From Candidatus Hodarchaeota archaeon (lineage in GTDB: Archaea; Asgardarchaeota; Lokiarchaeia; Sigyniarchaeales; SOKP01): a DNA stretch of 64,000 nucleotides. The stretch is taken from NCBI GenBank assembly GCA_048886685.1, contig JBHLKM010000016.1:32001-96000 (forward strand). Direction: 5' to 3'. A model generated the notes under the pieces. The model did not search any database and was not told where the DNA came from. It saw only the letters and a list, made by a program, of their open reading frames with translations. This document shows positions 18,592-42,637 of the stretch, in pieces (position 1 is the first letter of the stretch; each line of letters opens with the position of its first letter). The position numbers and the translations under genes are program-made.

Positions 18592-19801
18592 CTATTTTTG
18601 CTTTGAAAGGTATCTAATTTTTACGAGTAAATCTCGAAGTTCCATTTTATCATTGTCAGATGTTATGTATTTCTTTTTTACTCCTTCTGAAAGCGGGATT
18701 GTTTCAATTTTATTTCCTTGGAGAGATACCATATTCCCAAATTTACCTTCTAAAACAAGTTTCATTGCTGCTAATCCAAACCTTAATCCTAAAATCCTAT
18801 CAAATGAATTAGGTGGTCCGGCACGCATGGTGTGACCAAGAACTACACTTCGACATTCGAAATCTACTCCATTTTTCTCAAATTCTTGTTTTAAATCGTC
18901 TCTTAAGTTTAATTCTTCAACAATTATTTGGGACATATTCAATTTTACTAATAATGGATTACCAAATGTATCCTTAGGTAATTTATCAATTGTTTCTTTA
19001 GATATGGTTTTAAAATCTCGGTTAAGAGATTCTAAATTCGGATAGGCTCCCTCTGATGTAGCAATTATATGATATTTATAGCCAGCATTAACTCTTTTTT
19101 TCAAAACATCAATAACATCTTTTTCTAAGTCAAATGGCGTTTCTGGGATTAATATTATATCTGCTCCAGCAGATATTCCGCTATACATTGTTAAAAAACC
19201 TGCATCTCTGCCCATTACTTCTACAACAAATACTCTTTGATGCGATCGAGCCGTGGTTGTAAGATTATCCATCGCGTTAGAGGCTAGTTGTGTCGAACTC
19301 CAGAAGCCAAACGTATAATGTGTTCCCTGCAGGTCATTATCAATAGTTTTTGGCACTCCTACTACTTTAGCATCAGCGAATCTATACAAATTATCAGCCA
19401 CTCCAAGAGTATCGTGTTCAGTTTAAAACAGAAGTTATTCTAAAACTCCACCGATAGCAATTAGAGCATCTATTCCTAATTCTTCAAACTTTTTGGTTAA
19501 TTCTTTAGCTTTTTCCTCTTTTGCACTTACTCCCTTAAATGGATTCGTCCTACTTGTATATAGGATAGTCCCCCCCACAGTATGTAGGTCATCATGTTCT
19601 GCTATATTAAGTGGAATTGTTTGGTTTTCCACAAATCCTTTCCATCCCTTAAGGATGCCAACACATTCAATCCCAGTATCATAAGCTTTAAGCATGATTC
19701 CATAAAGTACGGAATTTAAACCGGGACAGTGTACGACAGTTAAGGAAACCTTTAGACATGGCTCCGCCGCCCGTGAGAATTCCAACTTTTTTAATTGCTA
19801 T
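18592..19801 (-). CDS. pfp: PfkA-family phosphofructokinase, predicted PPi-dependent. Three exons (19762-19801, 19446-19730, 18592-19415) give 382 aa after removal of two BHB-type introns
   Basis: Joined exons (40+285+824=1149 nt) read (M)AIKKVGILTGGGDCPGLN...ALIAIGGDDTLGVA...PKTIDND...EVMGR...LGHTMRAG with no internal stop. SD GAAGGTGA lies 6 nt before an ATA start. Confidence 0.9.
19416..19445 (-). other. Putative mRNA intron 2 of pfk (30 nt, BHB-type, contains in-frame TAA)
   Basis: GGT GGA G^TTTTAGAATAACTTCTGTTTTAAACTGAAC^AC GAT. Exon stem UAUCG/CGAUA, bulges AG^U and AC^A, 9-bp intron stem. Confidence 0.85.
19731..19761 (-). other. Putative mRNA intron 1 of pfk (31 nt, BHB-type, frameshifting)
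   Basis: GGC GGA G^CCATGTCTAAAGGTTTCCTTAACTGTCGTAC^AC TGT. Central helix GCGG/UCGU, bulges AG^C and AC^A. Confidence 0.8.
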
Positions 19802-19807
19802 TTATAA

Positions 19808-19815
19808 TCACCTTC
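19808..19815 (-). promoter_or_regulatory. Shine-Dalgarno site of pfk
   Basis: GAAGGTGA, 6 nt upstream of the ATA at 19801. Confidence 0.7.
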
Positions 19816-19935
19816 ATTAATTTTTATTTTTTTGACTAATTAATTAAGCCATTTTTGATTAAAAATGTTATTATGAAGTTATATTTAAAAAGATATAAAT
19901 GAAATTATCTTTCCATTCCTTTTTTTTTTAAAAAT

Positions 19936-20337
19936 CTATTCATTTTCATTATTTCCTAACCATTCTTTAAATGTTTTTTGAGGGATCATTTCCTGTATTG
20001 ATATACCTGTCTGTTCTTTAAATTGCTTTTCTATCTCCCTCGTCCATAGCTTCTTATCTATCTGATCATTCAGCTTTATTAAGACTATACCTCCTCTTGC
20101 ATCAAAAGCATCACGTTTAAATGAATCTCTTTGCCTTGTTTTGTATTTACTATGCCAATACATCTCCCAAAACTCATATAATACCTCATATTTCTTTCCA
20201 TTTATCAAAACACTGTTATATCCATCTACATGAGATCTCGGGTGAACTTTTTTATTCACTCCCTTAATTTTTATTTGATTTCCTACAATATTGCGTAAAT
20301 GTGTATGATCAAATTTTACGCCAAATATTTTTTCCAA
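19936..20337 (-). CDS. Hypothetical protein, possible PD-(D/E)xK (Vsr/DUF559-like) nuclease domain or remnant
   Basis: HVDGY...VLYEFWEMYWH...RD pattern resembles the VDG...EFxGxYWH nuclease motif. Confidence 0.5.
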   Translation of the reverse strand: MEKIFGVKFDHTHLRNIVGNQIKIKGVNKKVHPRSHVDGYNSVLINGKKYEVLYEFWEMYWHSKYKTRQRDSFKRDAFDARGGIVLIKLNDQIDKKLWTREIEKQFKEQTGISIQEMIPQKTFKEWLGNNENE

Positions 20338-20345
20338 TAGTAGGT

Positions 20346-20915
20346 TTATTCTGATTCTTTTTTTTCAAATTTTTCAAATTTATATTTTGATTTATCTTTT
20401 GGGATTATATAGCTCCCTCCTTCAGAATCAATAATTTTTAATGTAAATTCGAATTTTCCTTCTAATGCGTTTTTCAAATTATTTAAAAGATCTTCAATCT
20501 CAGGTATTTCTGGGTCTCCTTCTTTGAGATTCTTCCTATATATTGAAACGGCACTTTCAAATCTATATAAAATACCTTCTACATTAGTATAATAAAAATT
20601 GGCTCTGGGACCTGGTTCTACAATTAATTCGAGCTCAGGAATTTCTAATTTTCCTACAGGGGAACGGTAAATCTTTGATTTAAGGTCTTCTTCAGTTGTC
20701 ACTTTCAAGGTCATAATTCCTGGATCCATATTTGTTGTTAAAGGAATTACATCATTTTTATGAAAGCTGCAAGTATCGCATTCGAACTTCAATATGAGCA
20801 TCTTGTCTCCATCAGGTAAATCATAGACATTCTTAATGATGTCTATTGTGCCATTTTCACATGAGGGACATTTAAATGAATATAAAATTTCACTATTTTT
20901 TTTCTCAGTAGACAT
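20346..20915 (-). CDS. ZPR1 zinc-finger protein
   Basis: CPSC...CDTC, IPELELIVEPG, TNVEGIL and D-x-x-G-x-S-Y-I motifs. Confidence 0.92.
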   Translation of the reverse strand: MSTEKKNSEILYSFKCPSCENGTIDIIKNVYDLPDGDKMLILKFECDTCSFHKNDVIPLTTNMDPGIMTLKVTTEEDLKSKIYRSPVGKLEIPELELIVEPGPRANFYYTNVEGILYRFESAVSIYRKNLKEGDPEIPEIEDLLNNLKNALEGKFEFTLKIIDSEGGSYIIPKDKSKYKFEKFEKKESE

Positions 20916-41458: not shown

Positions 41459-41560
41459 GCAGATGTAGCCTAGTTGGTAAGACGCTGGCCTTGAGTAGAA
41501 CTTACAATCAAGTGAGCCAGTGCGCGTGAGCGCTCGGGGGTTCGAGTCCCTCCATCTGCG
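41459..41560 (+). tRNA. tRNA-Ser(TGA) with a 19-nt canonical (37/38) BHB intron at 41496-41514
   Basis: CTGGC-CTTGAG^TAGAACTTACAATCAAGTG^A-GCCAG. Helix CUUG/CAAG, bulges AG^U and UG^A, long variable arm. Confidence 0.93.
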
Positions 41561-41582
41561 CTTTGTAAACTAGTTTTTGAAA

Positions 41583-41686
41583 GGGCTATTGGCGCAGGCA
41601 GGTAGCGCAGCAGGCTCTTAACCTGACGGTCGGGGGTTCGAATCACTCGTTTGGAAAAGACGAGTGCGAAATTCCCTCATAGCCCG
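41583..41686 (+). tRNA. tRNA-Lys(CTT) with a 30-nt non-canonical T-loop (59/60) BHB intron at 41643-41672
   Basis: GGGCTAT/ATAGCCC acceptor, anticodon loop CTCTTAA, GGGGG-TTCGAA^TCACTCGTTTGGAAAAGACGAGTGCGAAAT^T-CCCTC. Confidence 0.9.
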
Positions 41687-41803
41687 TTCTTTTTCTTTAT
41701 TAATAGTAGACATTCCATAAAATCCTCTGGGTCTAAAGATTTATTGTTTACTCCAATCTTAATTACATTAAACATAATTCCTTTCTTTTTAGTTGAAATT
41801 CAT

Positions 41804-42637
41804 TTGAATAAAGAAGAAGCTAATAATAATAGGTCAAAATTAAGGATACATCCAAATCTTAGAGAAAATTTCTTTTATATTATAGATTCAAAAGATAAGG
41901 CATATAGGCTAGGATTTTTATATGCAGATGGAGGAATAACTGTAGATAAACGAAATCTTGCTAGTTATAGGCTTAAAATTGAAATTAATAAGAAGGATGA
42001 ATATCTAATTGATAGATTTTGTAACACTATAGGTTTTGAAAAAAAATATAAATCATATAGAAAAGATTCCAATACAGTCAGAATTCGTATAGGGAATAAA
42101 AAGTTAATCAATGATCTAGTGTCAAAGGGAGTTTACTTAAAAAAATCAAAAATTATTGAATTACCAGATTTGAATACTAGAGCCTTTTATTTAGCCTTCC
42201 TTTTAGGTTATTTTGATGGTGATGGTAAACAAGTAACCTCAAAAATTACATCTGGAAGTAGAAAATTCTTAGAACAAATTAAAAATTTTTTTAATTTACA
42301 TACAAAAATTCATACAAAATCCGGTTATGGAAATGCATATGATTTGTATTTAGGGAGTAAACTATTCAATGAAATGATGGATAATTATCAGTTTAGCTTA
42401 CCAAGAAAGAGATTTAAGTTTCCTTCGAGAGAAGAAAGAATTAAGAAAATGAGAAAGAATGCATGGAAACATGGGAACAATAGAAAATTGGTAATTAAAA
42501 AAGAAAAACTCGAAAAATTAGTTTGGGAAATATCTATATCCAAAATTGCAGAATTATATGATGTATCAGATACAACAATCATAAATTACTGTAAAAGATG
42601 GAAGATTATTAAACCGCCTAGAGGATTTTGGATTTAA
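41804..42637 (+). CDS. Free-standing two-motif LAGLIDADG endonuclease-like protein with C-terminal HTH
   Basis: AYRLGFLYADGGI and AFLLGYFDGDG motifs, C-terminal SISKIAELYDVSDTTIINYCK. TTG 41804 preferred because the track start lies inside tRNA-Lys. Confidence 0.85.
   Translation: MNKEEANNNRSKLRIHPNLRENFFYIIDSKDKAYRLGFLYADGGITVDKRNLASYRLKIEINKKDEYLIDRFCNTIGFEKKYKSYRKDSNTVRIRIGNKKLINDLVSKGVYLKKSKIIELPDLNTRAFYLAFLLGYFDGDGKQVTSKITSGSRKFLEQIKNFFNLHTKIHTKSGYGNAYDLYLGSKLFNEMMDNYQFSLPRKRFKFPSREERIKKMRKNAWKHGNNRKLVIKKEKLEKLVWEISISKIAELYDVSDTTIINYCKRWKIIKPPRGFWI

What the first reader, a model, noticed from the sequence alone, without database searches (positions are those of the whole stretch)
18592..19815. 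Phosphofructokinase gene split by two BHB-type mRNA introns: probable spliced metabolic mRNA in an Asgard-type archaeon
Seen in sequence: the gene appears as two fragments. Deleting exactly 19731-19761 (31 nt) and 19416-19445 (30 nt) restores an uninterrupted 382-aa PFK. Both conserved motifs are rebuilt at the junctions (LTGGG-D-CPG and AIGG-D-DTL), and all other motifs are intact. Each insert can be folded so that its two boundaries fall after the second base of a 3-nt bulge on either side of a 4-nt central helix. Established knowledge: this is the cleavage geometry of the archaeal tRNA splicing endonuclease (EndA, with RtcB ligation). BHB introns in protein-coding genes are rare and best known from crenarchaeal cbf5. 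Inference: the mRNA of a central glycolytic/gluconeogenic enzyme needs two splicing events. Retaining intron 1 gives a 37-aa peptide, and retaining intron 2 stops at an in-frame TAA. Carbon flux could therefore be coupled to splicing activity. Standard pipelines would miss this as a pseudogene.
Basis: partly seen in the sequence, partly recalled or inferred. Interest (0 to 1): 0.96.

Follow-up and report, generated by a model that had tools for sequence, protein, structure and literature searches.

The report
Two tRNA-type mini-introns in Asgard phosphofructokinase
The only phosphofructokinase gene of this Asgard archaeon is broken by two ~30-base inserts shaped like the introns archaea cut out of tRNAs, so its messenger RNA almost certainly has to be spliced, and the inserts appear to spread between species together with selfish DNA-cutting genes lying next to the gene.

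Summary
Observation confirmed with two corrections: the 382-aa frame starts at a non-AUG codon (ATA, 19801), and intron 2 is a relaxed BHB (3 of 4 central pairs). The host is a Promethearchaeota (Loki) archaeon with one pfkA, a two-subunit EndA and RtcB. Among ~110 family orthologues, an insert occupies site 1 in 31 (30/31/32 nt) and site 2 in 22 (30 nt). Removal always restores the frame, dN/dS is ~0.06-0.08, silent exon positions are frozen only within the BHB footprint, and an exon silent site covaries with the intron. tRNA-Lys genes of the genus carry the same 30-nt architecture. No spliced RNA was seen. Regulation of carbon flux is unsupported: presence is patchy and recombinational. A free-standing LAGLIDADG gene lies upstream in 7/30 intron-1 loci versus 0/78 without. 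This window has the promoter block shared with those loci, plus a truncated EDxHD-like nuclease gene. Best reading: EndA/RtcB-spliced mRNA introns (~0.9), probably spread by collaborative homing (~0.6). Papers found report archaeal mRNA splicing only for cbf5 and HVO_1309. This scan reported the same pfk introns, and the endonuclease link, earlier on other genomes.

The parts
19762..19801 (-). pfkA exon 1 (13 codons + G), starting at a non-AUG codon (ATA, 19801)
   Evidence: Translation. ATG stands at the same position after the same Shine-Dalgarno in L045 and L061; ATA/ATT/ATC in 9 of 31 intron-1 loci vs a non-canonical start in 2 of 80 intron-less loci
19731..19761 (-). intron 1, 31 nt, BHB; splits the Asp codon of the GGGD motif after its first base
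   Evidence: Same site in 31 loci of 5 genera, 30/31/32 nt; 92.5% of cells paired, 24 double changes vs 8.6 in shuffles
19446..19730 (-). pfkA exon 2 (285 nt)
19416..19445 (-). intron 2, 30 nt, relaxed BHB/BHL (1+9+5+9+4+2 architecture); splits the first Asp codon of GGDD after its first base; in-frame stops
   Evidence: Same site and length in 22 loci; 97.2% of cells paired; same architecture in tRNA-Lys introns of the genus
18592..19415 (-). pfkA exon 3 (carries PKTIDND, MGR, HTMR)
   Evidence: dN/dS 0.035-0.075 against nine orthologues
19802..19865 (-). promoter/5' leader block with Shine-Dalgarno (AAGGTGAT, 19814-19807) shared with intron-1 loci of other genera, including those carrying the LAGLIDADG gene
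   Evidence: The nine best matches to the 100 nt upstream are all intron-1 loci
19936..20337 (-). 5'-truncated remnant (133 aa) of a ~600-740-aa putative EDxHD/Vsr-like homing endonuclease gene inserted between zpr1 and pfk
   Evidence: Homologues P0001-P0007; profile hits the I-Bth0305I catalytic domain 3r3p at E=0.003; close relatives lie beside pfk
20346..20915 (-). zpr1-like gene; lies 60-130 nt upstream of pfk in nearly all intron-less family loci, marking the empty state

Best explanation
The gene is a functional PfkA-family phosphofructokinase (probably PPi-dependent, inferred from the GGDD and PKTIDND motifs) with two protein-spliced micro-introns. Steps: (1) shown in sequence: the pre-mRNA can fold at each insert into a BHB made partly of exon bases, and selection keeps those pairs; (2) inferred from established archaeal biochemistry: the (alpha-beta)2 EndA, which has the loop lysine needed for relaxed motifs, cuts after the second base of each bulge, and RtcB joins the exons; (3) inferred: translation starts at ATA behind a strong Shine-Dalgarno and gives a 382-aa enzyme. 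Origin and spread (less certain, ~0.6): the introns sit in the most conserved motifs and move between lineages by homologous recombination. For intron 1 this is probably driven by a free-standing LAGLIDADG homing endonuclease gene upstream that would cut intron-less alleles (collaborative homing), carrying promoter, start codon, exon 1 and intron as one block and later decaying. In this genome the LAGLIDADG gene is absent from the locus, but the block remains, next to the remnant of a second pfk-linked nuclease gene.
For: Frame restored exactly. Same two sites in 31 and 22 orthologues; frame-shifting lengths 31/32 at site 1; no internal stop in any of 115 CDS after removal. dN/dS median 0.084 between intron-bearing pairs vs 0.075 between intron-less pairs. 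Silent exon positions are fixed only where they pair, e.g. site 2 position -8 is C in 21/22 vs 17/91 and +2 is C in 22/22 vs 16/91; third-position identity falls to background outside codons -4 to +1. The exon silent base covaries with its intron partner: C-G in 28 loci, T-A in 3. Intron stems show compensatory changes, 0/500 shuffles. Only one pfkA; no ADP-PFK or FBP aldolase/phosphatase found. Two EndA subunits, with the catalytic His and the loop Lys aligning to A. pernix K44, plus RtcB. Same 30-nt architecture in tRNA-Lys introns, which must be spliced, and similar inserts in the single-copy rpl11 and three more genes. Both introns split an Asp codon after base 1, as in cbf5 (PMC2738675). 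Homing: LAGLIDADG upstream in 7/30 vs 0/78 (Fisher 7e-5; 6 independent pairs, none opposite, sign test p~0.06); shared promoter block; 5' tract swap between L044 and L053; 22 and 15 minimum changes on the tree.
Against: No spliced transcript, excised circle or peptide was observed. BHB-constrained folds are less stable than free folds, and RNAalifold recovered only 3 central pairs for site 1 with a different exon pairing. Intron 2 has an invariant G.A mismatch and, in 5 copies, a second U.U mismatch. Covariation at site 2 rests on one pair, and related sequences inflate the shuffle tests. For homing: no cleavage data; 23 of 30 intron-1 loci lack the LAGLIDADG gene; the phylogenetically corrected test is borderline; the EDxHD-like assignment rests on E=0.003, and one locus with that gene lacks intron 2 (L229).
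Confidence: 0.88

Rival explanations
1. Real spliced introns kept as a regulatory device that couples carbon flux to EndA activity.
For: Single pfkA and no alternative enzyme found; the unspliced message cannot give enzyme; relaxed motifs could splice inefficiently; the non-AUG start could lower expression.
Against: About 72% and 81% of scored orthologues lack intron 1 and intron 2; sisters at 0.02-0.1 distance differ; similar inserts occur in unrelated genes and tRNAs; association with nuclease genes.
Confidence: 0.1
2. Real introns, ancient in the family and lost repeatedly by precise deletion or ordinary gene conversion, with no role for homing endonucleases.
For: Intron 2 divergence tracks the exon tree (Mantel rho 0.52, p=0.0005); a few intron-less sisters keep intron-type flanks (L041 site 1; L012, L105 site 2); most intron-bearing loci have no adjacent nuclease gene.
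Against: LAGLIDADG gene never found upstream of an intron-1-less allele (0/78); promoter block shared across genera only among intron-1 loci; intron 1 tracks the tree weakly (rho 0.23, p=0.08). Change counts cannot orient gain versus loss. Compatible with the splicing part of the best explanation.
Confidence: 0.3
3. Pseudogene broken by small mobile hairpin insertions, or an assembly artefact.
For: In-frame stops and a frameshift; no canonical start codon; the genome is an assembly with 8% contamination; a stray pfk fragment with intron 2 lies on C5.
Against: Same sites in dozens of independent assemblies with diverged, pair-preserving sequences; no other lesion in any carrier; dN/dS ~0.05 on this lineage's own branch (0.028/0.58); no flanking duplication; no second copy of either insert outside pfk sequence.
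Confidence: 0.02
4. The inserts are skipped by the ribosome (bypassing/recoding) or excised at the DNA level rather than spliced from RNA.
For: Hairpins can promote bypassing (own knowledge); no RNA evidence was available to exclude it.
Against: Both inserts split a codon and have no matched take-off/landing codons; site 1 tolerates 30, 31 and 32 nt; the conserved feature is exon-intron pairing with bulges at both boundaries, identical to the tRNA introns; no recombinase sites or repeats.
Confidence: 0.04

Closest known systems
cbf5 pre-mRNA intron of Desulfurococcales/Sulfolobales (PMC2738675; review PMC10485636)
   Same: Short relaxed-BHB intron in a coding sequence, placed between bases 1 and 2 of a conserved Asp codon, patchy across relatives, host with (alpha-beta)2 EndA
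   Different: Here two introns in one central-metabolism gene in Asgard archaea, one of several such genes per genome, with neighbouring free-standing nuclease genes. cbf5 splicing is shown experimentally; this is not.
Haloferax HVO_1309 mRNA intron (review PMC10485636)
   Same: mRNA substrate of the archaeal splicing endonuclease, seen spliced in RNA-seq according to the review
   Different: Different lineage and enzyme type (alpha2); a single gene
Asgard tRNA introns (bioRxiv 10.64898/2026.10.13.758758)
   Same: Short BHB introns, gained repeatedly, EndA (alpha-beta)2; the 30-nt class is shared with tRNA-Lys of this genus
   Different: That paper treats tRNA genes only (no occurrence of 'mRNA') and leaves the route of arrival open
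Collaborative homing of phage group I introns with free-standing endonucleases (described in PMC10448857)
   Same: ORF-less intron in a conserved gene with an adjacent free-standing homing endonuclease gene; joint inheritance
   Different: The intron is a 30-nt protein-spliced BHB element in a cellular archaeal genome, not a self-splicing ribozyme in a phage; cleavage not shown
I-Bth0305I / EDxHD homing endonucleases (PMC3239194, PDB 3r3p)
   Same: C-terminal Vsr-like nuclease domain after an N-terminal region; weak profile match
   Different: Free-standing, longer N-terminus with cysteine motifs, truncated in this genome; match only E=0.003

Membership tests
Archaeal BHB (EndA-spliced) introns | Boundaries after the second base of two 3-nt bulges separated by a 4-bp helix | tested here: met
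   Intron 1: 4/4 central pairs in this genome, 99% of cells across 27 sequences. Intron 2 meets only the relaxed form, see next row.
Archaeal BHB (EndA-spliced) introns | Strict canonical hBHBh' at intron 2 | tested here: not met
   Outer central position is G.A in 21/22 copies and G.G in 1; it fits the relaxed/BHL class that (alpha-beta)2 EndA cleaves (PMC5829648)
Archaeal BHB (EndA-spliced) introns | Structure conserved by selection (covariation, frozen exon bases) | tested here: met
   strong at site 1, one doubly changed pair at site 2
Archaeal BHB (EndA-spliced) introns | Precise removal restores the product found in intron-less orthologues | tested here: met
Archaeal BHB (EndA-spliced) introns | Host encodes a broad-specificity EndA and RtcB | tested here: met
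   Two PF01974 genes and one RtcB; the alpha subunit aligns to A. pernix EndA, including the loop Lys and catalytic His
Archaeal BHB (EndA-spliced) introns | Excision from RNA in vivo or cleavage in vitro | not testable with these tools
   No RNA run was listed for this stretch
Group I / group II self-splicing introns | Ribozyme core of several hundred bases | tested here: not met
   Inserts are 30-32 nt single hairpins
Collaborative homing (intron plus free-standing endonuclease) | Adjacent free-standing homing endonuclease gene co-occurring with the intron | tested here: met
   LAGLIDADG (PF14528 above cut-off) upstream in 7/30 vs 0/78; not present at this window's own locus
Collaborative homing (intron plus free-standing endonuclease) | Association holds across independent lineages | tested here: inconclusive
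   6 independent pairs, about 5 concordant, 0 discordant, median p=0.06
Collaborative homing (intron plus free-standing endonuclease) | Endonuclease cuts the intron-less allele at the insertion site and not the intron-bearing one | not testable with these tools
   Needs a cleavage assay
EDxHD / Vsr-like homing endonuclease (ORF 19936-20337) | Vsr-like catalytic domain | tested here: inconclusive
   3r3p E=0.003; Atlas feature neighbours DUF559/DUF2726 at 0.91; no Pfam hit; fold model unusable (pLDDT 41)
PPi-dependent PfkA | Asp at the donor-specificity position (GGDD) and Lys in PKTIDND | tested here: met
   Motifs present; that they indicate PPi use is own knowledge. NCBIfam best hit is PFK_mixed (below cut-off), and an ATP-named subfamily model passes its cut-off, so the donor is not settled.

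The most novel reading that the evidence does not exclude
Lokiarchaeia carry a family of ~30-nt protein-spliced BHB micro-introns that invade both tRNA and protein-coding genes. They are spread by free-standing homing endonuclease genes beside the host gene, the intron making the allele immune. Routine multi-intron mRNA splicing would then exist in relatives of eukaryotes, and there would be a concrete, testable route for how such introns move.
Probability: 0.55. Interest if true: 0.92.

Novelty: new variant of a known kind. Interest (0 to 1): 0.8.

Why it matters
Papers I could search document archaeal mRNA splicing for cbf5 and HVO_1309 only, and none reported it in Asgard archaea. A two-intron mRNA for the apparently sole fructose-6-phosphate/bisphosphate enzyme, plus candidates in rpl11 and thioredoxin, would make EndA/RtcB a general mRNA-processing system in relatives of eukaryotes. 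It also means databases hold these genes as fragments (86- and 274-aa pieces), which distorts metabolic reconstructions. The link to free-standing homing endonucleases addresses a question that a 2026 preprint on Asgard tRNA introns leaves open, namely how the introns arrive, and can be tested with a simple cleavage assay.

Tried and rejected
RNA evidence: no RNA holder was listed for this stretch, so no reads could be laid; this is no evidence either way. The three closest database proteins (94-95%) come from intron-less alleles with different silent sites, not from spliced copies. A de novo BHB + ORF-joining scan gave 287 mostly spurious hits and was discarded; only homology-based calls are used. 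RNAalifold did not return the full BHB for site 1. Structure prediction of the nuclease remnant failed (pLDDT 41); Pfam and PHROGs gave no convincing family. The 30-nt length difference in exon 2 between genera (285 vs 315 nt) is present in intron-less genes and is in frame, so I treated it as a protein indel and not a third intron. No source for either intron was found elsewhere in this genome or in 1.6 Mb of a relative. No endonuclease-like ORF (by motif) was seen beside the rpl11, thioredoxin, scramblase or C4 inserts. A candidate insert on C18 was a start-codon shift. A specific tie between the EDxHD-like gene and intron 2 is not established: 4 of 5 scorable loci have intron 2, but duplicated pfk 3' fragments beside it in L212 and L228 point to a target in the 3' half. 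No paper on the Asgard PFK structure 9cir/44xa was found. A sigma-70 promoter scan was at chance level.

Full report
OBSERVATION. The minus strand carries a PfkA-family gene in three pieces: 19801-19762, 19730-19446 and 19415-18592. Deleting 19761-19731 (31 nt) and 19445-19416 (30 nt) gives 382 codons without a stop and rebuilds GGGD-CPG and GGDD-TL. Retention gives 37 aa (insert 1) or 111 aa (insert 2). Both inserts fall between the first and second base of an Asp codon. Related loci with the same leader have ATG (L045, L061) or ATA/ATT/ATC at that position, so I infer real non-AUG initiation; this is untested.

HOST. A 91% identical orthologue lies in a record titled Promethearchaeota, and database names are Lokiarchaeota/Promethearchaeota. 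The genome (100% complete, 8.4% contaminated) has one full pfkA and a 230-bp fragment on C5. No ADP-dependent kinase or FBP aldolase/phosphatase was found with those family models. It has two EndA-domain genes and RtcB. One EndA aligns over its length to the A. pernix catalytic subunit, with the catalytic His and the loop Lys corresponding to K44. PMC5829648 reports that this loop gives (alpha-beta)2 enzymes their ability to cut relaxed motifs, and that Asgard enzymes have it.

COMPARATIVE TEST. I searched 152 genomes of the order and examined about 125 loci. Interrupted loci were fetched preferentially, so frequencies are approximate. Site 1 holds an insert in 31 of 110 scored loci of the family, across five genera (23 of 31 nt, 7 of 32, 1 of 30; 28 distinct sequences). 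Site 2 holds one in 22 of 113 (all 30 nt; 15 distinct). None was seen in eight loci of other families. After removal no CDS of 115 has an internal stop. dN/dS is 0.03-0.07 for this gene against nine orthologues; the median is 0.084 among intron-bearing pairs and 0.075 among intron-less pairs. This rejects pseudogene and assembly artefact.

STRUCTURE. Intron 1 has a 4-bp central helix, two 3-nt bulges, an exon stem with one bulged base and an interrupted intron stem. 92.5% of cells pair, and 24 cells change on both sides against 8.6 in shuffles (0/500, with the caveat that relatedness inflates this). The most telling pair joins a silent exon base to the intron: C-G in 28 loci and T-A in 3. Intron 2 has a perfect 5-bp exon stem and a 9-bp intron stem, but only three central pairs, with G.A at the outer position in 21 of 22 copies. 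It is a relaxed motif, and only one pair shows double changes. Silent exon positions are fixed in carriers where the model pairs them or places the bulge (site 2: -11, -8, -5, -2, +2) and free in non-carriers; the effect disappears outside codons -4 to +1. Random genome positions meet the geometry in 0.025% of cases, never as stably. Against: free folds are more stable than the BHB folds, and RNAalifold gave a different exon pairing at site 1, so the enzyme would have to capture a minor conformer.

NOT AN ISOLATED CASE. A motif-free comparison with 1.6 Mb of a congener recovered both pfk inserts blind. It found four more frame-breaking 30-35-nt inserts in this genome (single-copy rpl11, a thioredoxin, a scramblase-like gene, a small C4 gene) and two in the relative, all foldable as strict or relaxed BHB; in-frame protein indels generally scored lower. 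Only sites that differ between the two genomes are visible this way. tRNA-Lys genes of the genus carry ~30-nt inserts of the same 1+9+5+9+4+2 plan at two or more positions, also patchily. Because tRNAs must be spliced, this is an internal control that the class is removable.

HOW THEY SPREAD. Presence is scattered: at least 22 changes for 28 carriers of intron 1 and 15 for 19 carriers of intron 2, barely fewer than shuffled labels. L044 and L053 differ at 11 positions over 340 codons but at 16 in the first ~22 codons and in the leader, where L044 matches another species. This is a recombination tract that includes the intron site. Intron-less loci almost always have zpr1 60-130 nt upstream; intron-1 loci often have an extra gene or a wider gap. 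In seven the extra gene is a two-motif LAGLIDADG endonuclease (one frameshifted): 7/30 versus 0/78, Fisher p=7e-5; 6 independent pairs, none discordant, p about 0.06. Its close relatives (59% or more) occur only beside pfk in the genomes searched. This window lacks that gene but has the same ~65-nt promoter/leader block as four of those loci, and its nine best matches are all intron-1 loci from several genera. Non-canonical starts follow the same block (9/31 vs 2/80). Between zpr1 and pfk the window has instead a 133-aa ORF that is the C-terminal end of 600-740-aa proteins and weakly matches the I-Bth0305I nuclease domain (E=0.003). Its close relatives lie beside pfk, upstream or convergently downstream, in seven other places where pfk is on the contig or joined by overlap, and an eighth shares this window's flank; its target is unclear. 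A second instance in the same window: an intron-bearing tRNA-Lys at 41583-41685 is followed by a LAGLIDADG gene, as in one other genome with a related intron, and in none of the intron-less copies read (2 cases only). The arrangement resembles collaborative homing in phages (PMC10448857). Cleavage is not shown, and ancient presence with repeated loss remains possible, especially for intron 2, whose sequence tracks the exon tree (rho 0.52).

COMPARISON WITH THE LITERATURE. It works like the cbf5 intron, including the position inside an Asp codon (PMC2738675). A 2023 review lists cbf5 and HVO_1309 as the spliced archaeal mRNAs (PMC10485636). A 2026 preprint covers Asgard tRNA introns only, notes that none of its newly found inserts has been shown spliced in a cell, and finds no general arrival route. 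My searches found no paper on Asgard mRNA introns or on free-standing endonucleases with BHB introns; most subscription papers are outside this library. All sequence-testable features of a BHB intron are met, strictly for intron 1 and in relaxed form for intron 2; excision itself was not testable. This scan has reported the same pfk introns in other genomes; those notes are leads, and the numbers above are my own.

VERDICT. Real feature; EndA/RtcB-spliced mRNA introns about 0.9; spread by collaborative homing about 0.6; regulatory coupling to carbon flux about 0.1. New variant of a known kind; interest 0.8.

Noticed in passing
window 41583-41685 (+) and 41627/~41750-42634 (+): tRNA-Lys(CUU) gene missed by ARAGORN, with a 30-nt strict BHB insert in the T-loop, followed directly by a free-standing LAGLIDADG gene. 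The same pairing with a related intron occurs in G007 (L268); no such gene after intron-less copies read.
   Followed up: partly
window 41459-41561 (+): tRNA-like gene with an insert near the anticodon, called tRNA-Thr with a 19-nt intron in one ARAGORN run and missed in another; identity not resolved.
   Followed up: no
G000 C1:204867 (+), 35 nt: Frame-shifting relaxed-BHB insert in the single-copy ribosomal protein uL11 gene, absent in G021.
   Followed up: partly
G000 C1:288858 (-), C2:163723 (-), C4:207110 (-): 30-nt stop-containing BHB-like inserts in a thioredoxin (just before WCGPC), a scramblase-like gene and a small unassigned gene, absent in G021.
   Followed up: partly
G000 C5:244014-244245 (+): Stray 232-bp pfk fragment (part of exon 2, intron 2 at 28/30 identity, 14 nt of exon 3), 95% identical to the window gene, in an intergenic region; recombination debris or contamination.
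   Followed up: partly
L212:2-64 and L228:1-57: A second pfk fragment lies on the far side of the EDxHD-like gene, suggesting that this gene inserts with a duplicated or replaced 3' part of pfk.
   Followed up: no
L080, L081 upstream of pfk: Intron-less alleles with the intron-1-type Shine-Dalgarno and no canonical start codon (apparently ACG); possible loss of intron 1 after the block arrived.
   Followed up: no
family-wide: LAGLIDADG genes related to the pfk-linked one occur in 58 of 133 genomes, often in several copies, free-standing or inside long ORFs (likely inteins); their neighbours were not screened for micro-introns.
   Followed up: no
G021 C1:296203 (+) and C1:335882 (-): 29- and 30-nt BHB-like frame-breaking inserts in the relative that are absent in this genome.
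   Followed up: partly
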